DNA of 64,000 bases from the NCBI GenBank assembly GCA_043781255.1, contig JAYWBQ010000028.1, forward strand, positions 16,702-80,701, in the 5' to 3' direction. The notes beneath the pieces were generated by a model. It saw nothing but the letters and a program-made list of their open reading frames with translations. It did no database searches and had not been told where the DNA came from. A program made the translations under genes and the position numbers. Shown here piece by piece: positions 2,346-13,972 of this stretch. The stretch is from Minisyncoccota bacterium (GTDB taxonomy: Bacteria > Patescibacteriota > Minisyncoccia > Phycocordibacterales > UBA5272). Position 1 is the stretch's first letter. Each line of letters begins with the position of its first letter.

Positions 2346-2603
2346 AATTCAAAGTATAACATTTACTTAATTAACTAAGCTAGAATACGCAAATTACACC
2401 TAATGAAATAAAAATAGAGACTAATGATTTAGTTTAATTTGACAACCTTTTCCATAAAATGTAACAATGAATATACGGAGTAAGGTCATTTACTTCTGTG
2501 CATTCCCGTAAAGATTGTTTACTAACATGTTGAGTGTTAGTTGTCCTGATTTCCCAAAAGCATAGCTGTACCAGTTGCGGTCATAGAAAGTCCAAAAACT
2601 TCT

Positions 2604-3101
2604 ATGTCTACATCTATCTTAGATGAATTCTTCCTGTGTGATGTTTCTGTAGATCAAAAATCAATAAAGTATTCAATAGACAGAAATAGTACTTATCTAC
2701 TGTCTAGAGAGTTGTTCCTACACTCAAAATCACATGTTGAGTGGTTTTCCGCATTCCCTGATGTATCACTGCACGCTGATTACTCACAGAAGGTTAGAGG
2801 GTCACTTTTCACAGGTATTGTTAAAACACTTTTTCCGGAGGAAAAATTAAGTATTGTATCTGCACATTACCTTTTCCCTTGTCAAACTCTAGCGGAGGAA
2901 CGGAGTGAGTTTTACAAGTGGAAAAGTAGTGTGATAGGTGAAGACATACCAGCCCGTCCTGTTAAAGGGCGGGTATGGTTACACATAGCACGCGGGAAGT
3001 GCGTAAGCGGTACCCAACGGGTACCGAGCAACGCGTATCAACGTTCTGGGTTACTAGTAACACCCAGAGAACGTTGCATGTTGCAACAACACTCCATATG
3101 A
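2604..3101 (+). CDS. Hypothetical protein on the element. The C-terminal part overlaps the inverted-repeat block and may not be coding.
   Basis: 165-aa ORF. Its last ~50 codons run through GC-rich palindromes (2940-3095), so the true product is probably shorter, or the ORF is spurious. Confidence 0.25.
   Translation: MSTSILDEFFLCDVSVDQKSIKYSIDRNSTYLLSRELFLHSKSHVEWFSAFPDVSLHADYSQKVRGSLFTGIVKTLFPEEKLSIVSAHYLFPCQTLAEERSEFYKWKSSVIGEDIPARPVKGRVWLHIARGKCVSGTQRVPSNAYQRSGLLVTPRERCMLQQHSI
2950..3096. repeat. Cluster of inverted repeats; candidate replication origin or recombination site of the element
   Basis: Three inverted repeats: GGTACCCAACGGGTACC (3009-3025), CAACGTTCTGGGTT-ACTAGT-AACACCCAGAGAACGTTG (3039-3076) and TGTTGCAACA (~3078-3087). 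They are GC-rich in an AT-rich element and sit immediately upstream of the putative Rep start at 3098. Confidence 0.45.
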
Positions 3102-4171
3102 TAGACACAATTAAATTCTTTGTGTCTATTCCTGATGTTCAAGTTCTTAATAGAATAAAGAGCATTTCTGAACAAATAAAAAGAGAAGACCTAAAAACAG
3201 GAAAGATAAGATTTGTATTCCACACAACTGAAATAAAAGTAGGTTCTTATAATAAATCAATCAATATAAGGATAACAGACAATCTTTACAACCAAGGATT
3301 ATTCATAGAGCTCTCAATTCCAAAATATGCAAAAGGAAACAATATAGAAATGCTCCTACCCAGAGAGCTCCCACAAATAATAGAAAAATTATCCCAAGAC
3401 ATAACCACCCAACTAGATACCCCACTACCTCATTTTTCTACTTGGGAAATATTTAGATTAGACATTTGTTATAACTGGATATTTAAAACTAAACAAGAAA
3501 CAGAAACAGTAAGGGGTTTTCTTCAAAGAATAGATTATCCAAGAAAGAAGAAAATCCTGTACCCAACATCCGTCATGTTTTTAGGTACTGCTTATCTTAT
3601 TAGATTCTACTTAAAATATCCTGAGTACTTAGTTCATGACTACAAAGATTTACAAGATGAAGACAAAACAAGTGATAGAACATTTAATCTTTTATTCTTT
3701 GCAGAAAGAATTGTTAGATTTGAAGTTGAGTTTAAGAAAAAACATCTTAAAGGGGTTTTTAGATATGACAAAGTATTCATTGTACATATACAAGATGATG
3801 AAAAAATAGAGGAGGAACTCAAGCACTACCTCAATGACAAAGTATTCAAATATGTAACTCTTAAGAATACAACAGATATCAAAGTAGAAGAACTGCTTTA
3901 CAGTAACTTCACAAAAACAAAAGCTACACGTCTTTATCAATTCTACAATGATTTCTATTTAAGTAATGGAGCTATAAAAAATAGAATGCTTAGCGGTGGT
4001 TTAAACAGAAGCACTATTTGGAGGTATAAAACAGATCTTAAAAGTGTTGGTATTGGTTTTGACGTGGTAAGTACTTCTGGCGTCAGTTTACTTGAACAGT
4101 TAGTAATTCCATCTCCAAATTCAAAGTTTGATTTAATTGGTTTTCCTGAAAAAGAAAATGGACATTGTTAA
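3098..4171 (+). CDS. Possible rolling-circle replication initiator (Rep_trans-like); otherwise a hypothetical protein
   Basis: The ORF track starts it at 2975, but codons 1-41 lie in the IR block. The Met at 3098 (MIDTIKFF...) is the more plausible start. The segment KKHLKGVFRYDKVF resembles the Rep_trans R-x-Y-D-K nucleophile region. Weak, unverified. Confidence 0.35.
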   Translation: MIDTIKFFVSIPDVQVLNRIKSISEQIKREDLKTGKIRFVFHTTEIKVGSYNKSINIRITDNLYNQGLFIELSIPKYAKGNNIEMLLPRELPQIIEKLSQDITTQLDTPLPHFSTWEIFRLDICYNWIFKTKQETETVRGFLQRIDYPRKKKILYPTSVMFLGTAYLIRFYLKYPEYLVHDYKDLQDEDKTSDRTFNLLFFAERIVRFEVEFKKKHLKGVFRYDKVFIVHIQDDEKIEEELKHYLNDKVFKYVTLKNTTDIKVEELLYSNFTKTKATRLYQFYNDFYLSNGAIKNRMLSGGLNRSTIWRYKTDLKSVGIGFDVVSTSGVSLLEQLVIPSPNSKFDLIGFPEKENGHC

Positions 4172-4328
4172 AACTTCACAAGAAGAAGTTTTACCTGAAG
4201 AAACCCTACAAACGTTAGAGGCTTTAGGTGAGGTGCTGCTTAGAATTAGGAGAAGGATGTTATCTGAGGGGTTTGACGTGGTAGATGGAAAAGTTGTTAA
4301 AAAGAGTATAATAGACAAAAATGACTGA
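4137..4328 (+). CDS. Small protein translationally coupled to the recombinase; candidate recombination directionality factor or regulator
   Basis: Of the 63 codons, a start at MDIVKT (4158) is likely. Its stop TGA (4326-4328) overlaps the recombinase ATG (4321) in an ATGACTGA arrangement. Confidence 0.3.
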   Translation: MVFLKKKMDIVKTSQEEVLPEETLQTLEALGEVLLRIRRRMLSEGFDVVDGKVVKKSIIDKND

Positions 4329-5991
4329 AGAAGAACTACAAATCTGGAAGGATATTGAGAAAGGTAAGTACTGCAATTACTATTTGATTTACAATAGAAA
4401 AAGTACTGATGAACAAGATAATCAGAAAACTTCTCTTAGACATCAAAAAGAAGAAAATCTTAAATTTGCTCAAAAGAATAATTTACCTATTGCCCCCATT
4501 ACAACACCTACATTTTTTAATAATGGTGTAATATCAGAAAAACATTCTGCATATAAACAAGATGATGATATGGTTTTAAATGATGACGGAACTGTTCAAC
4601 TTAGCGTTGGAAGACCAAAGTTTTTTAAACTGTCACAGTTGTTAAATAAGAAATTATTTAAAGGTGTTATTTTCTTATGTCTTGACAGAGCTAGTAGAAA
4701 TGCGTCTGATAATTTAATCATCAAAAAACTTCAAAAGAATGGTGTAGATATACTCTTTGCTCTTGCTACTTATGATAAGACTAGTGCGGGGAAATTACAC
4801 CAAGATATTGATGGGATGTTTGCGGAACATAAATCAAGAGACACTGCTGAAAAAGTCACAAATACTGGAAAGAAGAATAGAAATGGTGGTGTCTGCACTT
4901 ATAAAGCACCTGTTGGTTATTTAAATCTAGGAACAATGGATAACAAACCATTTGACCCAGTACGTGCTCCATTTATTGTAAAATTTTTTGAACTAGCAGA
5001 TACTGGATGGTCACTTGCGGATATAGCTAGATTTTCTATTGAACAAGGTTTTACAATGCCTCCAATTCGGAAAAGAAGGAGTACTCATCAACTACTTTTA
5101 GATGAAGAAGAAGATGAAGCATCAACTCAACCCAAAGTATGCAACCTTGCTAGATATACCACTATACAAAAGATACTACGCAGTCCTTTTTATACAGGTG
5201 CTGTCCAAAACAAAGAACTTGGGTGGATACCTAGTACAAGTCATAAAGCTCTCATAACAAAAGAAATGTTTGATAGAGTACAAGAAAAACTTACTAAGAA
5301 GAACAGGAGTAAAAAGTATAATGAACCTCTTCCTAATCCATTTAGAGCACAATTCACCTGTGACGGTTGTAGACGCTCCTATACCCCATATTTTAAGAAA
5401 GGACACCTATATTTAGGGTCTAGGTGTGTAGTTGGGTGTTCTAACTCAAACAAGAACTTTAACGTTGATTTTATTACCAAGAACATAAGTAAGGTTGTCA
5501 GTAGTCTTTCTTTCTCTAAGGAGGAAATTGGAGTTATAGATAGTAGGGTTAAAAACTATTTAGAAGTCTTAGAAAAAGACCAAAATAGTAAGGATGAGGA
5601 AAATAAAAATAAGAAGAATAAACTTAGTGAAGATTTAGCATACTTAATAGCAAATAAACTCACCCTTTTAAAGAATGGTGTTTATACTCCTGAAAGTTTG
5701 GTGGTAGAAGAAAAAAAACTGGAAACAGCTATCAGTAACATTTCTAACCTTGAGCATGTTTCAGTAGAAGAAATACAAAAAACAGTACAAAATGTTTATA
5801 AACTTTCAGAACTTCTAAAAGACTTTATTCCTCAATGGGAATTTGCTAATTCTCATGAAAAACAAGATTTACTTAAAATAATGTTTTCAGAACTTTCTAT
5901 TTCTGAGAAAAACCTTAATTATAAGGTTACAAATGGACTTGTTCCCATTCAATCAAGATTTTTCTCTCTTTGTGCCCAGGAAAGGACTTGA
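4321..5991 (+). CDS. Large serine recombinase (resolvase domain, recombinase domain, zinc ribbon, coiled coil)
   Basis: N-terminal YLIYNRKSTDEQ (the Y-x-R-x-S-T-x-x-Q catalytic serine motif). The central region has the large-serine-recombinase layout. Cys cluster CDGCRRS...GSRCVVGC. C-terminal coiled-coil-like segment. The last 19 nt overlap tRNA-Leu. Confidence 0.9.
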   Translation: MTEEELQIWKDIEKGKYCNYYLIYNRKSTDEQDNQKTSLRHQKEENLKFAQKNNLPIAPITTPTFFNNGVISEKHSAYKQDDDMVLNDDGTVQLSVGRPKFFKLSQLLNKKLFKGVIFLCLDRASRNASDNLIIKKLQKNGVDILFALATYDKTSAGKLHQDIDGMFAEHKSRDTAEKVTNTGKKNRNGGVCTYKAPVGYLNLGTMDNKPFDPVRAPFIVKFFELADTGWSLADIARFSIEQGFTMPPIRKRRSTHQLLLDEEEDEASTQPKVCNLARYTTIQKILRSPFYTGAVQNKELGWIPSTSHKALITKEMFDRVQEKLTKKNRSKKYNEPLPNPFRAQFTCDGCRRSYTPYFKKGHLYLGSRCVVGCSNSNKNFNVDFITKNISKVVSSLSFSKEEIGVIDSRVKNYLEVLEKDQNSKDEENKNKKNKLSEDLAYLIANKLTLLKNGVYTPESLVVEEKKLETAISNISNLEHVSVEEIQKTVQNVYKLSELLKDFIPQWEFANSHEKQDLLKIMFSELSISEKNLNYKVTNGLVPIQSRFFSLCAQERT

Positions 5992-6054
5992 ACCTTCACG
6001 CCTTGCGGCATCAGTTCCTAAGACTGATGTGTCTACCAATTTCACCACCTGGGC
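5973..6054 (-). tRNA. tRNA-Leu (anticodon TAG)
   Basis: Hand-folded. Acceptor stem GCCCAGG/CCTGGGC. D-arm GTGAAATTGGTAGACAC. Anticodon loop CTTAGGA. Long variable arm TGCCGCAAGGCGTG. T-arm AAGGTTCAAGTCCTT. Confidence 0.85.
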
Positions 6055-6199: not shown

Positions 6200-6805
6200 A
6201 TGAACCCTCAAGATGTAACTATACAAACATATCAGGATAATTTTGAGCTCTACAAAGAAAAGACACCGAGGGTACTATTTGGTGAATTTCTTACACGGAT
6301 GGATTCTTTTATAAATGTGCTTCCTCTACATGGAAAAATATTTGAACTAGGCTCTCTAGAGGGAAGAGATGCACGGTATTTGCGAGACAAGGGTTTCACT
6401 GTCACCTGTACAGATGTCATTCCACAAGCGCTTCAGTCACTAGAAGTAGATGGATTTACAACGTACTTCTATGACCTGAGAGATGAGCCAAAAGAAGAAT
6501 GGAGTAACTTATTTGATGGCATTATTGCAAAAGCCGTCTACCTTCATATGTCGCAGGAAATATTTGAAAAATCTCTCGCTTATATGGGTACGATTTTAAA
6601 AGTGGGAGGTATATTTTGTTTGACTTTTAAGCTGGGGGTTGGTGAGGAAATAGAAACAAGGAAGCTGGGAGGTGAGAGATATTTTAAGTATTACACACAA
6701 AAAGAGCTGGAAGCTATCGTAAAAAAATATCAGTGCTATGAGCTCGTCGATACAGTAACAATAGAAGATAAAAAGTGGATCCAGATTCTTCTGAGGAAGA
6801 AATAA
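6200..6805 (+). CDS. Class I SAM-dependent methyltransferase
   Basis: Motif I-like FELGSLEGRDARYL and the size (201 aa) are typical of small-molecule MTases. Confidence 0.65.
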   Translation: MNPQDVTIQTYQDNFELYKEKTPRVLFGEFLTRMDSFINVLPLHGKIFELGSLEGRDARYLRDKGFTVTCTDVIPQALQSLEVDGFTTYFYDLRDEPKEEWSNLFDGIIAKAVYLHMSQEIFEKSLAYMGTILKVGGIFCLTFKLGVGEEIETRKLGGERYFKYYTQKELEAIVKKYQCYELVDTVTIEDKKWIQILLRKK

Positions 6806-6885
6806 AAATAAAAACCCCAGCAAACGACTGTGCGCTTGGAGGGGTTTTGCTTGTAACATTGCGCTACAAGGTTGGAGCGTTTCGA

Positions 6886-7728
6886 TTAGGCTGATGCCAT
6901 CTCGCGTTGCTCGAAGTCAACTTGGTCAACTTGGAACATCGACGAAACGTCGATACCACTCACGGGGACCTTTACGTCATCGTCATCACCAAATTCTGCC
7001 TTATGCTCTTCGTCGACCATTTTCATGGTGATGACGGCATCCATGGGCTGATCAAATGAATCTCGTGTCATTTTCATGAAGTTTTTCTGTACGTTTCGTG
7101 CTTTTGCTTTGGTAATCAACTCTTTCAAGTTGTGCTGCAAAAATGCAAGCATGCCATCCTGAACTTCCCCGATTTTCCCTCGCGTGAAGTTTGCCTTCAC
7201 GTGTTTCTGCAGAAGCCAGGTATGAGGGATGAAAATTCGCTCATGTGCGCCATCCCGGAGGAATGGTTCTTGAATAACCAAGATGTCTTGTGCAGGCTTG
7301 TCCCCATTTTTAGGGAACCAGCGAAGTGTGACAATAAAGTCGTTGGTGACGAACTGGTCATCAGAGTTTCGGCCGAAGACATGGTAGCTACCATGGGTGC
7401 CAATAACCATCTCTTTAAGACGATTTTGCTCCTGTTCAGCAAGAATTTTCTTTGTCTCGGCTTTTGCCTTTGCGGCTAGTGCCTGCTTTTGCTCTTGGTG
7501 AGCTTCTGCACGGTCTTGGTTTCGGTCAAAGTTCGGGATCATACCTTTCACTTCCTTTACCGGCTTGGCCGCTTGTACAGCCGCCTCTTTGGCAGCTTTT
7601 TTGTCAGCGAGAGTCGTTTTCTTTATCTGCTTAGTCATCGAGTACTCCAGTTGATGCCTGTTAGGGCTATAACAATTTAAAAGGACATGACCATGTAAAA
7701 GTACAGGGTCAAGATATATTATACACAA
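6886..7728 (-). CDS. Hypothetical protein with a Lys/Ala-rich N-terminal tail (possible nucleic-acid binding)
   Basis: Likely true start at 7638 (MTKQIKK...), which has a GGAG 8 nt upstream. The tail ADKKAAKEAAVQAAKPVKEVKG is histone-H1-like low complexity. The globular part matches no family I recognise. GC is higher than in neighbouring genes. Confidence 0.5.
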   Translation of the reverse strand: MCIIYLDPVLLHGHVLLNCYSPNRHQLEYSMTKQIKKTTLADKKAAKEAAVQAAKPVKEVKGMIPNFDRNQDRAEAHQEQKQALAAKAKAETKKILAEQEQNRLKEMVIGTHGSYHVFGRNSDDQFVTNDFIVTLRWFPKNGDKPAQDILVIQEPFLRDGAHERIFIPHTWLLQKHVKANFTRGKIGEVQDGMLAFLQHNLKELITKAKARNVQKNFMKMTRDSFDQPMDAVITMKMVDEEHKAEFGDDDDVKVPVSGIDVSSMFQVDQVDFEQREMASA

Positions 7729-7739
7729 AATATAGATTT

Positions 7740-7812
7740 TGTCAATAAATATATTGACATTTAATATAAAATATTATATATTATAAAAATCTGGTGTCAT
7801 TAAAAATACCAG
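7740..7812. promoter_or_regulatory. Divergent promoter region with a palindromic operator-like site and a second hairpin
   Basis: TGTCAATA-aata-TATTGACA is a perfect 8-bp inverted repeat (7740-7759) that overlaps a TTGACA -35-like hexamer and is followed by A/T-rich -10 candidates. A second inverted repeat CTGGT-n12-ACCAG lies at 7790-7812. AGGAG at 7858-7862 precedes the ATG at 7871. Confidence 0.35.
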
Positions 7813-7870
7813 ACGAAAGTTTCTCTTTAGTTCACTGTCCTTTTACATTTTATTTTTAGGAGTTATTCAA

Positions 7871-8770
7871 ATGACAAAAAGTGTCCCTCACACTCTGGAA
7901 GACCAAATCGGGGTAGCGAACCTTCTTTCGCTGGCTACTAAGGTGGCCCTTCAACTGAAGCCAGAGACTAAGTTCTCAGCCTTCGCAGCTGAAGGACATG
8001 GTGCATGCCTGCTTCTTGACGGCACTATCTTCGGGTATATCGCACACGCAAATGGCGACAAGGCAATGGTGCTTAAAACTGGACACCAAGACCTTGAGGT
8101 GAACGATTTTGTTCATCTTCAGGAAGTTGGCTATTATGCATTCTCTGGTGAGGGGTACTATCCCTCTAGCGTTCGTGATCCAAGGATTGAGAATAAACGC
8201 GTAGCGATGTTTGATATCTTGCTTTCTGTAATCGCTGCTGAAGGCGGCCATGAGGCTGTGCTTCAAGCAATTAAAATGCGAAATGGCAAAAAAGATGAGG
8301 TGAGGCGTATTGTGAAAGATATGAAAAGTGGGGTGCTTCCGAGTAACCTGCTTGACATGTTTAGTGATATGAAGAAAGCGAAAGCTCTTGGAATCATTGT
8401 TAACAATTCGCCTCTGGTTTTTTATCGAGCATATCAAAGGATGCAGGTAAAAGATGTGTGGAAGCATGTACTTGTTATTCGCTTGGGGCTCGCGCCACAC
8501 GGTGTTGAGGGGTTTGATATTGGGACATTTGTCCCTTTGGCCAATCTCTTCATCGAGCACAGTAACAAACATGTTGCTCAAATGGTGAAAGTTCTGGTGG
8601 AGAGTATCTCGCCAAAAGATCTGGATGAGGTTAAACGCCTTACTCATGATCTTGCGGTTACGGAAGGCCGTATTCTGGAAGCAGAAGCAGAAGACTCGGC
8701 ACCTTTACTACCTGAAATTATTTTTAAGGAAGTGGGTGCTGGAGAGTCTGACAGTCAGATTCTTCATTGA
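7871..8770 (+). CDS. Hypothetical protein
   Basis: 299-aa ORF with a canonical SD (AGGAG, 8-nt spacing) and a downstream hairpin terminator (8786-8815). No recognisable motif. GC is higher than in neighbours. Confidence 0.6.
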   Translation: MTKSVPHTLEDQIGVANLLSLATKVALQLKPETKFSAFAAEGHGACLLLDGTIFGYIAHANGDKAMVLKTGHQDLEVNDFVHLQEVGYYAFSGEGYYPSSVRDPRIENKRVAMFDILLSVIAAEGGHEAVLQAIKMRNGKKDEVRRIVKDMKSGVLPSNLLDMFSDMKKAKALGIIVNNSPLVFYRAYQRMQVKDVWKHVLVIRLGLAPHGVEGFDIGTFVPLANLFIEHSNKHVAQMVKVLVESISPKDLDEVKRLTHDLAVTEGRILEAEAEDSAPLLPEIIFKEVGAGESDSQILH

Positions 8771-8836
8771 GTTCATACATGTACACATGAGGTGAACAAA
8801 AGGCGAACGCAAGCGTTCGCCTTTTCTTTTTATGGT

Positions 8837-13565: not shown

Positions 13566-13972
13566 ATAAATTGCATCTTTAATTCGAAAATACAAATACT
13601 TTAAGGTTCACCCTATGGTGAGGACAAGACAGAAGAAGTTTTGGGGATGAGATCACTGTTGGTGAGAAATTAGGAATTATTTCAGGTAAAATTATATATC
13701 AAAAAGAAATTTTGTCAAGTTGACTTCAGTAATTAATTTTGGCATTGTATATATACTACCGAAGATGTAAGAATAGTCTGCTTATCCACCACAACTTAAC
13801 TCTATAATCCTGCTACACTGTAAGAGAAGATATACGTAAGATTTTTTGTGTATTTAAGAATTATATTTGAATTATCAGTATTTAATTAGTTACGATTTAT
13901 TTTTATCTACGAAATAGTGTCTCAAGAGATCATCGTAGATAAATTACTTGGGCTAAAAGTTATATTTACCAT

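What the first reader, a model, noticed from the sequence alone, without database searches (positions are those of the whole stretch)
6886..8770. Divergently transcribed pair of unknown, higher-GC genes sharing a promoter region with an 8-bp perfect palindrome
The two ORFs (250-280 aa and 299 aa) match no family I can recognise.

- **Composition.** They are more GC-rich than flanking housekeeping genes.
- **Shared promoter region.** The AT-rich divergent region carries TGTCAATA-aata-TATTGACA, which overlaps a -35-like TTGACA. A second hairpin CTGGT-n12-ACCAG is also present.
- **N-terminal tail.** The minus-strand protein has an H1-like tail (KKAAKEAAVQAAKPVKEVK). It may bind nucleic acid and autoregulate via the palindrome.
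- **Terminators.** The pair is bracketed by bidirectional terminators at 6815-6850 and 8786-8815.

A two-gene module with its own operator is a reasonable place to look for an uncharacterised accessory system.
Basis: partly seen in the sequence, partly recalled or inferred. Interest (0 to 1): 0.5.

Follow-up and report, generated by a model that had tools for sequence, protein, structure and literature searches.

The report
Back-to-back promoters driving two orphan genes
The "operator" palindrome is most simply two consensus promoter -35 boxes placed back to back, driving two real, fast-evolving, GC-rich genes of unknown function that occupy a variable slot next to rbfA in one clade of ultra-small (Patescibacteria) bacteria.

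Summary
Gene A (6886-7638, minus strand, 250 aa) and gene B (7871-8770, plus strand, 299 aa) are real and divergently transcribed. They match no Pfam, NCBIfam, PHROG, PADLOC or PDB entry, and they have the two highest GC3 values of 56 window ORFs.

The 8-bp palindrome is TTGACA read on both strands. Each copy sits at the right distance from a -10 box: TTGACA-16-TATAAT for A and TTGACA-17-TATATT for B. Distant relatives keep only the hexamers. Relatives in which A has no divergent partner lack the B-side half. An operator is therefore unnecessary, though not excluded. Both hairpins lie at the predicted 5' ends of the mRNAs.

The organism is a Paceibacteria-type CPR bacterium. Across about 30 related loci the backbone infB-rbfA-[gap]-rluA is conserved. 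The gap holds varying combinations of A-like, B-like and other orphan proteins. All are GC3-rich (0.42-0.82 against 0.22-0.44 for core genes), and most carry the same strong promoter type. A evolves more than 10 times faster than IF-2. Between close strains B shows 6 nonsynonymous and 0 synonymous changes.

A and B are adjacent in three lineages, but each also occurs without the other. Function remains unknown. My best inference is abundant, non-enzymatic proteins under relaxed or diversifying selection.

The parts
6886..7638 (-). Gene A, 250 aa, 28.5 kDa. Layout: Lys/Ala-rich basic tail (residues 1-31), predicted long helix (39-78), beta-rich core (about 83-138), helix (157-189), acidic C-terminal tail.
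   Evidence: ORF and translation. Homologues P0001-P0003 and P0021-P0024, L048 333-aa protein. Window vs L006 dN/dS = 0.16, so it is coding. Secondary structure comes from a low-confidence model with pLDDT 52.5.
7645..7648 (-). Shine-Dalgarno GGAG of gene A, 6 nt before the ATG.
   Evidence: Read from the sequence. GGAG is kept in all A-family leaders.
7656..7667 (-). Leader hairpin 2 (GCCy-loop-rGGC), just upstream of the SD of gene A.
   Evidence: It is the only element in the RNAalifold consensus. Three of its 4 pairs show compensatory changes among 7 leaders.
7688..7711 (-). Leader hairpin 1, at the predicted 5' end of the gene A mRNA (UGACCCUGUA-CUUU-UACAUGGUCA).
   Evidence: Energy -9.1 kcal/mol, z = -4.2 for the 26-nt piece. 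A 5'-proximal hairpin of different sequence is present in each A homologue. L006 keeps it through paired changes.
7718..7745 (-). Promoter of gene A: -35 TTGACA (7745-7740), 16-nt spacer, -10 TATAAT (7723-7718). It scores 12 of 12.
   Evidence: Promoter scan. It is one of only two perfect TTGACA-n15-18-TATAAT sites in the 64-kb window. It is conserved upstream of all A homologues, down to 30% protein identity.
7740..7759 (.). The palindrome TGTCAATA-AATA-TATTGACA, read as the two -35 hexamers back to back, 8 bp apart.
   Evidence: Arms are 16/16 identical in L006 and the spacer 2/4. In L048, L031 and L024 only TGTCAA...TTGACA is kept.
7754..7782 (+). Promoter of gene B: -35 TTGACA (7754-7759), 17-nt spacer, -10 TATATT (7777-7782). 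It scores 11 of 12.
   Evidence: Promoter scan. Equivalent strong promoters precede B homologues in L048 and L049.
7790..7813 (+). Hairpin at the predicted 5' end of the gene B mRNA.
   Evidence: Energy -9.3 kcal/mol, z = -4.6 for the 27-nt piece. It starts about 8 nt after the -10 box. 5'-proximal hairpins of other sequence occur in the B leaders of L048 and L049.
7858..7862 (+). Shine-Dalgarno AGGAG of gene B, 8 nt before the ATG.
   Evidence: Read from the sequence.
7871..8770 (+). Gene B, 299 aa, 32.9 kDa, pI 6.1, no hydrophobic segment.
   Evidence: ORF. An exhaustive phmmer search found 21 representative clusters with E <= 1e-3, 290-358 aa, 27-40% identity. The family alignment shows the motifs EN.R..LL.AI..GGH.AV, DI.SG.L..DP..MF and AP.G, and a C-terminal hydrophobic-hydrophobic-H/Q ending.
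6811..6848 (.). Terminator-like inverted repeat shared by the convergent methyltransferase gene (+) and gene A (-).
   Evidence: Arms of 16 nt, 81% complementary. On the minus strand the stem is followed by TTTTTATTTTTATTT.
8795..8828 (.). Terminator-like inverted repeat shared by the convergent gene B (+) and rbfA (-).
   Evidence: Twelve pairs plus a T-run in the scan. Arms of 16 nt, 94% complementary.

Best explanation
A and B are two separately transcribed, lineage-specific protein genes of a Paceibacteria-type (CPR/Patescibacteria) bacterium. They lie in a variable slot between rbfA and rluA.

**Shown or directly readable.**
- The palindrome consists of the two -35 hexamers of back-to-back sigma-70-type promoters. 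These give predicted transcription starts about 78 bp apart.
- Each mRNA begins with a stem-loop and has a 75-80 nt leader ending in a strong Shine-Dalgarno sequence.

**Inferred.**
- Both genes are expressed strongly and constitutively. The stem-loops act as 5' stabilisers. No dedicated operator is required.
- The proteins are cytoplasmic and non-enzymatic, because they have no signal peptide, no membrane segment and no invariant catalytic-type residues.
- They evolve very fast under relaxed or diversifying selection. Their raised GC3 is a property of this whole slot across the clade, not a mark of recent import.

What they bind or build is not known.
For: **Promoters.**
- They score 12/12 and 11/12 with correct spacing. 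Perfect-consensus sites number only 2 in 64 kb.
- A's promoter and leader are conserved in all A homologues, down to 30% protein identity.
- The B-side half of the palindrome is present only where a gene diverges from A.
- L048, L031 and L024 keep TGTCAA-n7-8-TTGACA without the 8-bp symmetry.
- In L049 an IS element sits exactly between the two hexamers, and B retains its own promoter.

**Leaders.** 5'-proximal hairpins occur in every leader, with differing sequences. Hairpin 2 shows compensatory changes.

**Taxon and synteny.**

**GC3.**
- A and B rank 1 and 2 of 56 window ORFs.
- Genes in this slot have GC3 of 0.42-0.82 in the related loci, against 0.22-0.44 for core genes.
- A prefers C-ending Phe, Asn and Asp codons (0.62-0.80 against 0.24-0.32).

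**Rates.**
- Window vs L012: IF-2 90% and RbfA 92% identical, but A only 35%.
- Window vs L004: dN/dS is 0.58 for A and 0.52 for B.
- Window vs L007: B has 6 nonsynonymous and 0 synonymous changes, against 5:19 in IF-2 plus DUF4446. Fisher p = 7.8e-4.

**No known family or fold.**. No phage or viral homologues.
Against: - No expression data exist. Promoter strength, transcription starts and abundance are all inferred from sequence.
- Whole leaders are not more structured than shuffled sequence (z = -0.6 and -0.9). The hairpin z-scores come from segments chosen after seeing the stems.
- The palindrome arms are 16/16 conserved in L006 while the spacer varies. A protein could also bind there.
- GC3 far above the core-gene level (up to 0.82) is more than translational selection usually produces. 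No ribosomal-protein genes were available as a reference.
- In-frame deletion alleles of B and a frameshift in A of L006 could mean decay rather than diversifying selection.
- Polymorphism counts are small and come from metagenome assemblies.
Confidence: 0.6

Rival explanations
1. This is an autoregulated two-gene accessory module. Protein A binds the 8-bp palindrome through its H1-like basic tail and controls both divergent promoters.
For: - The perfect palindrome straddles both -35 boxes.
- The arms are invariant while the spacer varies in L004 and L006.
- A has a basic N-terminal tail with net charge +6 over 31 residues.
- A<->B adjacency recurs in three lineages.
Against: - The symmetry is fully explained by two -35 hexamers.
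- The 8-bp arms are not kept in L048, L031 or L024.
- A homologues with the same promoter and leader lack the second arm when no gene diverges from them.
- An 8-bp inverted repeat arises by chance in 11.5% of shuffles.
- Neither protein has an HTH or histone-like domain.
- The tail is the least conserved part of A.
- A and B each occur without the other.
Confidence: 0.1
2. A horizontally acquired island. The pair was imported from a GC-richer donor, for example together with the neighbouring integrative element, and has not yet drifted to the host's base composition.
For: - GC and GC3 are well above the genome level.
- The slot attracts mobile DNA: a Rep plus serine-recombinase element at tRNA-Leu 1-4 kb away, and IS elements in L009 and L049.
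- Gene content of the slot differs between species.
Against: - The integrative element is low-GC (33%) and absent from relatives that carry A or B, so it is a separate event.
- A and B sit in the same place next to rbfA across relatives whose B is only 27-40% identical.
- They sit behind the clade's own promoter type.
- There are no homologues in the phage records or IMG/VR viral contigs, and no A relative in a pattern scan of the GTDB species representatives.
- GC3 enrichment persists in all lineages instead of decaying.
Confidence: 0.12
3. A conflict or interaction locus. The slot encodes proteins in an arms race, such as anti-phage factors or host-interaction factors of an episymbiont. Diversifying selection and frequent recombination would explain the fast evolution, and GC-biased gene conversion would explain the high GC3.
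For: - B shows 6 nonsynonymous and 0 synonymous changes between close strains, while its neighbours are dominated by synonymous changes.
- dN/dS is 0.5-0.6 at short distance.
- In-frame indel alleles exist.
- Families are swapped at one position between species.
- GC3 is elevated throughout the slot.
Against: - There are no hits to known defence families.
- No secretion signal or membrane segment is present.
- No nuclease, ATPase or toxin-like domains are detected.
- dN/dS falls to 0.16 at larger distance, which fits relaxed purifying selection equally well.
- The polymorphism sample is very small.
Confidence: 0.15
4. Spurious or decaying ORFs. The GC-rich stretch is not protein-coding, or the genes are pseudogenes on their way out.
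For: - Deletion alleles of B exist.
- A is frameshifted in L006.
- Structure models are of low confidence.
Against: - Full-length ORFs are kept across 27-40% identical homologues, with conserved motifs.
- dN/dS is below 1.
- SD sequences, promoters and terminators are all in place.
- The deletions in B are all in frame.
Confidence: 0.03

Closest known systems
Back-to-back divergent sigma-70 promoters (the classical 'divergent, non-overlapping' promoter arrangement; own knowledge)
   Same: There are two -35/-10 pairs on opposite strands sharing one AT-rich upstream region. Each promoter's upstream A/T tract is the other promoter's core.
   Different: - Many textbook divergent pairs, such as tetR/tetA or ilvY/ilvC, have a regulator gene on one side and operators overlapping the promoters. 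No regulator domain is detectable here.
- The symmetry does not extend beyond the hexamers in distant relatives.
5'-terminal stem-loop mRNA stabilisers, such as the E. coli ompA leader, the B. subtilis aprE leader and S-layer gene leaders (own knowledge)
   Same: A hairpin lies within a few nucleotides of the predicted 5' end of a long leader, ahead of a strong SD and behind a consensus promoter. The structure is kept while the sequence changes.
   Different: The transcription start and mRNA half-life are unmeasured. The proteins have no signal peptide, unlike OmpA, AprE or Sec-dependent S-layer proteins.
Histone H1-like or Hc1-type basic tails of nucleoid proteins (own knowledge)
   Same: There is a Lys/Ala-rich, probably disordered basic segment (KKAAKEAAVQAAKPVKEVK).
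   Different: - It is only about 30 residues, at the N-terminus of a 250-aa protein whose remainder is a novel globular domain plus an acidic tail.
- There is no family match.
- The tail varies freely among homologues.
Hypervariable chromosomal slots or plasticity zones flanked by conserved core genes (own knowledge)
   Same: Conserved flanks (infB-rbfA and rluA) enclose a species-specific gene set, IS elements and an integrative element.
   Different: The occupants are not typical island cargo. They are clade-restricted orphan families behind native strong promoters, with systematically raised GC3.

Membership tests
Sigma-70-type divergent promoter pair | -35 and -10 hexamers close to consensus with 16-18 nt spacing on each strand | tested here: met
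   TTGACA-16-TATAAT scores 12/12 on the minus strand. TTGACA-17-TATATT scores 11/12 on the plus strand.
Sigma-70-type divergent promoter pair | Elements conserved in orthologous loci and positioned upstream of the genes | tested here: met
   A's promoter is conserved in all A homologues. Back-to-back hexamers are present in L006, L031, L048 and L024.
Sigma-70-type divergent promoter pair | Mapped transcription start sites | not testable with these tools
   No transcriptome data are available. Starts near 7711 (-) and 7789-7790 (+) are inferred from the -10 positions.
Operator plus autoregulator module (transcription factor with palindromic operator) | One of the proteins carries a recognisable DNA-binding domain | tested here: not met
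   No HTH, RHH or histone-like hit in Pfam or NCBIfam for A or B. No PDB sequence match. The structure models are too poor to judge by fold.
Operator plus autoregulator module (transcription factor with palindromic operator) | Dyad symmetry conserved beyond what the promoter elements require | tested here: not met
   The 8-bp arms are kept only in the window, L004 and L006 subclade. L048, L031 and L024 keep only the hexamers.
Operator plus autoregulator module (transcription factor with palindromic operator) | Protein-DNA binding | not testable with these tools
   This needs an EMSA or footprint.
Known anti-phage defence systems (PADLOC) | Match to a defence-system protein model | tested here: not met
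   No hit for A or B. Only the neighbouring methyltransferase gives a weak mad2 hit.
Phage or mobile-element cargo | Homologues in phage or viral sequence, or inheritance together with the adjacent integrative element | tested here: not met
   No hits in 50,697 phage records or in IMG/VR. The Rep/recombinase element is absent from other loci that carry A or B.
Strictly co-inherited two-gene module (A with B) | The two families always occur together and adjacent | tested here: not met
   They are together in the window clade, L006 and L048. A occurs alone in L012-17, L015, L026 and L033. B occurs with c18 (L031) or c14 (L049) as its partner.
Gene A superfamily (A, c25, c28, c183, c159 slot proteins) | Significant profile-profile similarity over the globular domain | tested here: inconclusive
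   hhalign gives famA-c25 34% (E 4e-4), famA-c28 31%, c25-c183 79% and c25-c159 28%. Aligned regions are collinear but the alignments are shallow. Shared short motifs were seen. The L048 333-aa protein is a clear member at 99.3%.

The most novel reading that the evidence does not exclude
The rbfA-rluA gap of this Paceibacteria clade may be a dedicated 'expression island'. It would hold several orphan protein families: the A superfamily built from a repeatable domain of about 100 aa, plus B, c14 and c18. All sit behind consensus promoters with stabilised leaders. All are strongly GC3-enriched relative to their AT-rich genomes, and all evolve an order of magnitude faster than their neighbours.

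If so, this would be a previously undescribed clade-specific system under diversifying selection. Candidates are host-interaction factors or anti-phage factors of ultra-small episymbionts. The GC enrichment would then be maintained by recombination-driven biased gene conversion.
Probability: 0.2. Interest if true: 0.6.

Novelty: new variant of a known kind. Interest (0 to 1): 0.35.

Why it matters
The feature that prompted the finding, an operator-like palindrome, is an ordinary consequence of placing two consensus promoters back to back. That is a useful caution when scanning AT-rich genomes for regulatory dyads.

What remains of interest is the locus itself. CPR/Patescibacteria genomes are full of unannotated genes. 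Here a small set of orphan families combines every sequence hallmark of very high expression with extreme evolutionary rate and a persistent GC3 anomaly, at a fixed chromosomal address.

If metatranscriptomes or metaproteomes confirm abundance, these would be good candidates for the lineage-specific proteins that shape the biology of these ultra-small cells. They would also be a natural test case for what maintains local GC enrichment in a reduced, AT-rich genome.

Tried and rejected
**Family searches.** Pfam, NCBIfam, PHROGs and PADLOC on A, B and eight slot analogues gave nothing above threshold.

**Structure.**
- AlphaFold2 on A (7-sequence alignment) gave pLDDT 52.5. On B (3 sequences) it gave pLDDT 33.3.
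- PDB sequence-profile searches with the A and B family alignments gave nothing credible.

**RNA families.** Rfam on the pair and on the whole window found only tRNAs and sub-threshold noise.

**Collection scans.**
- The A profile found no relatives in GTDB genomes, IMG/VR or JGI metagenomes.
- The B profile found none in JGI metagenomes. Two B alignments were too divergent to derive search patterns.
- tblastn of A and B against phage records found no match.

**Literature.** One full-text search for highly expressed hypothetical proteins in Patescibacteria returned one irrelevant paper.

**Rejected readings.**
- *The 280-aa TTG start of A.* It lies upstream of the -10 box, and homologues start at MTKQ/MAKQ.
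- *A toxin-antitoxin pair.* The divergent orientation, the sizes and the absence of family hits all argue against it.
- *A link between the pair and the neighbouring Rep/serine-recombinase element.* The element has opposite GC and is absent from relatives.
- *A translational-selection test against ribosomal-protein genes.* None lie in the window.
Full report
**1. What is in the sequence**

The region holds two divergent ORFs.
- Gene A is 6886-7638 on the minus strand. It is 250 aa from an ATG that is preceded by GGAG.
- Gene B is 7871-8770 on the plus strand. It is 299 aa from an ATG that is preceded by AGGAG.
- The alternative 280-aa TTG start of A lies upstream of the predicted transcription start. 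It is not used by homologues, which all begin MTKQ/MAKQ.

The compositional claim holds.
- GC is 47.1% for A and 45.8% for B, against 37.6% for the 64-kb window. The intergenic region is 26.7%.
- At third codon positions A (0.524) and B (0.421) rank first and second of 56 ORFs (mean 0.287, sd 0.064).

The other described features are also present.
- The perfect 8-bp inverted repeat is TGTCAATA (7740-7747), AATA, TATTGACA (7752-7759).
- The CTGGT-n12-ACCAG hairpin is at 7791-7812.
- Two terminator-like inverted repeats lie at 6811-6848 and 8795-8828.

An 8-bp inverted repeat with a short loop arises in 11.5% of dinucleotide shuffles of this AT-rich spacer. The palindrome is therefore not remarkable by itself.

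**2. The palindrome is two -35 boxes**

The promoter scan gives two near-consensus sites.
- Minus strand: TTGACA (7745-7740), 16 nt, TATAAT (7723-7718), scoring 12/12.
- Plus strand: TTGACA (7754-7759), 17 nt, TATATT (7777-7782), scoring 11/12.

The palindrome arms are simply these two hexamers plus two flanking bases. Only two perfect TTGACA-n15-18-TATAAT sites exist in the 64-kb window, and A's is one of them.

Comparative data decide between 'promoter elements' and 'operator'.
- A's promoter and its 75-nt leader are conserved upstream of every A homologue, including those only 30% identical in protein. The B-side half (TGTCAATA) is present only where a gene diverges from A. Where the neighbour is a histidine-phosphatase gene (L012, L016, L017) it is absent.
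- In distant loci with a B homologue (L048, L031), and in L024, the two hexamers remain back to back 7-8 bp apart. The inner bases differ (TGTCAATA...ACTTGACA), so the 8-bp symmetry is lost.
- In L049 an IS element has inserted exactly between the two hexamers. B keeps its own TTGACA-17-TATAAT.

Within the window, L004 and L006 subclade the arms are 16/16 identical while the 4-nt spacer varies. The surrounding promoter DNA is itself 79-91% identical, so this adds little. An operator is not excluded, but nothing requires one.

**3. The hairpins are at the mRNA 5' ends**

With starts about 7 nt after each -10 box, A's transcript begins at about 7711 with the stem-loop 7688-7711. Each has an energy of about -9 kcal/mol.
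- Every A-family leader has a 5'-proximal hairpin of different sequence.
- L006 keeps the window's stem through paired substitutions.
- A second small hairpin (GCCy-loop-rGGC, 7656-7667) shows compensatory changes in 3 of its 4 pairs among seven leaders.
- B leaders in L048 and L049 also start with hairpins.

Whole leaders are not more stable than shuffles (z = -0.6 and -0.9). I therefore read these as local 5' stem-loops of the mRNA-stabiliser kind (own knowledge: ompA, aprE). I do not read them as a riboswitch-like element. Rfam has no match.

**4. Who carries it, and where**

IF-2 relatives place the window in Patescibacteria. The MAGs are labelled Paceibacterota, 'Saccharibacteria' or Nomurabacteria.

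Across about 30 loci the backbone is conserved: ClpB, SOD, aminotransferase, DUF4446, infB, rbfA, a gap, then rluA. The gap content varies.

The A family was extended with a profile. It comprises seven 90%-identity clusters plus A-like genes in L026, L033, L024 and L048.

For B, an exhaustive phmmer search of 1.84 billion representatives found 21 clusters of 290-358 aa at 27-40% identity. None has a Pfam domain. All four B-family homologues outside the window's close relatives whose context could be read (L006, L031, L048, L049) sit beside rbfA.

| Locus | Arrangement |
|---|---|
| L048 | c14(-), A-like 333 aa(-) <-> B(+), rbfA, infB |
| L049 | rluA, c14(-) <-> [IS] B(+), rbfA, infB |
| L031 | c18 ... 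<-> B, rbfA |
| L006 | methyltransferase, A <-> B |

A occurs without B in L012-17, L015, L026 and L033. Close relatives L009-11 (IF-2 93% identical) have neither. They carry IS30 fragments and an unrelated 331-aa protein instead. So the pair is recurrent but not obligatory.

**5. A property of the whole slot**

In the related loci the genes occupying the gap have GC3 of 0.42-0.82, against 0.22-0.44 for the flanking core genes. These are A, B, c14, c18, c25, c28, c24, the L009 331-aa protein and the L015 325-aa protein.

Most are preceded by the same promoter type, cTTGACAAAAt...TTTcGTGTATAAT, and by leaders of 75-110 nt.

Profile comparisons give weak but collinear similarity between A and c25, c28, c183 and c159 (hhalign probabilities 28-79%). 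There are also shared short motifs:
- a basic tail followed by K-G-x-x-P-x-F/Y;
- G..G.Y;
- ..HPLA..;
- Q..ML.FL / LR.YLR;
- endings in -SA or -AA.

These may be one hyper-diverged, domain-repeating superfamily, but that is not established. B is unrelated to all of them.

**6. Evolutionary rate**

| Comparison | Result |
|---|---|
| Window vs L012 | IF-2 90% identical, RbfA 92%, A 35% (dN 0.67 against 0.06) |
| Window vs L004 | dN/dS 0.58 (A) and 0.52 (B) |
| Window vs L006 | dN/dS 0.16 (A), so it is under constraint and coding |
| Window vs L007 (near-identical strains) | B 6 nonsynonymous : 0 synonymous; IF-2 plus DUF4446 5 : 19; Fisher p = 7.8e-4 |
| Window vs L001 | ClpB and rbfA 0 : 31 |

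B also exists as in-frame deletion alleles.
- One allele lacks 138 bp, removing the SD, the ATG and 28 codons. The junction creates a new ATG.
- L008 lacks a further 201 bp.

This is either diversifying selection or relaxed constraint. The sample is too small to say which.

**7. What the proteins look like**

- A has a basic tail (net +6 over 31 residues), a predicted long helix, a beta-rich core with the motif FIPHTWL, a helix carrying VQ..MLAFL, and an acidic tail (net -11) with a repeated M..VD.EH motif.
- B has conserved motifs but no invariant Cys, His, Asp or Ser pattern that would suggest catalysis.
- Neither has a hydrophobic segment.
- The structure models are unreliable (pLDDT 52.5 and 33.3), and the fold search found nothing.
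- There are no PDB, phage, viral or defence-system relatives.

**8. Explanation and its limits**

*Shown.* The gene structures, the promoter and terminator matches, the comparative behaviour of the palindrome, the synteny, the GC3 anomaly and the rate differences.

*Inferred.* Strong constitutive expression, stabilising 5' hairpins, and a cytoplasmic non-enzymatic role.

*Unknown.* What A and B do, and why the slot is GC3-rich.
- C-ending codon preference in A fits translational selection. Values up to 0.82 elsewhere in the slot seem too high for that alone.
- Recombination-driven biased gene conversion is an alternative (own knowledge).
- Repeated import is another alternative. It is disfavoured by the conserved address and the native promoters.

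**9. Verdict**

The operator/autoregulator interpretation is not supported. 'Uncharacterised genes worth a look' is fair, but as a clade-specific, fast-evolving, probably highly expressed locus, not as a mobile accessory system. Interest is moderate to low until expression or structure data exist.

Noticed in passing
window 2400-6054: A low-GC (~33%) integrative element lies next to tRNA-Leu. It carries a rolling-circle Rep of the G2P/Phage_CRI type (2975-4171), a 63-aa ORF (4137-4328) and a large serine recombinase (4321-5991). The recombinase's 3' end overlaps tRNA-Leu (5972-6054, minus strand). The element is absent from related loci L009 and L012.
   Followed up: partly
window 13570-13720 (minus strand): The only other perfect consensus promoter in the window (TTGACA-17-TATAAT, -35 at 13718) points towards the 3' end of the SOD gene. 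No ORF longer than 25 aa lies downstream and there is no Rfam match. It may drive a small or antisense RNA.
   Followed up: partly
L031 11150-11560: A GC-rich unit of about 400 nt runs from a promoter to a terminator hairpin. It is transcribed divergently from the B homologue, has no ORF and matches no Rfam family. It is a candidate structured RNA.
   Followed up: partly
L004, L005, L008 (equivalent to window 7818-7955 and 8111-8310): Strain variants of gene B carry in-frame deletions. One removes 138 bp (the SD, the start codon and 28 codons), and the junction creates a new ATG. L008 has a further 201-bp in-frame deletion.
   Followed up: partly
L009 12113-13068; L049 6938-7873: IS elements occupy the same slot. 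L009-11 carry IS30-like transposase fragments where A and B would be. In L049 an rve-family transposase is inserted exactly between the two back-to-back -35 boxes.
   Followed up: yes
C-termini of slot proteins (window A residues 246-250; B residues 297-299; L012, L015, L018-L033, L048, L049): Most A-like, c14, c18 and c25 proteins end in -SA or -AA, which resembles an ssrA-like degron. Almost all B-family proteins end in hydrophobic-hydrophobic-His/Gln. Conserved termini on otherwise hyper-divergent proteins suggest a shared recognition step such as proteolysis, sorting or assembly.
   Followed up: no
window 7773-7800 (minus strand): A second promoter-like site, ATGACA-16-TATAAT (11/12), lies upstream of A's main promoter and overlaps the hairpin of B's leader. 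It is conserved in L004 but not in L006.
   Followed up: no
L006 729-1470: Gene A of L006 is split by a frameshift in the Lys-rich tail into a 36-aa ORF and a 220-aa ORF. This is either an assembly error or an N-terminally truncated allele.
   Followed up: no
window 6200-6805 and homologues in L006, L009, L015: A 201-aa SAM-methyltransferase gene is the conserved neighbour on the far side of A, or of its replacement. It is 71-78% identical across loci and has ordinary GC3 (0.23-0.34). It gives a weak PADLOC mad2 hit with E = 9e-7.
   Followed up: partly
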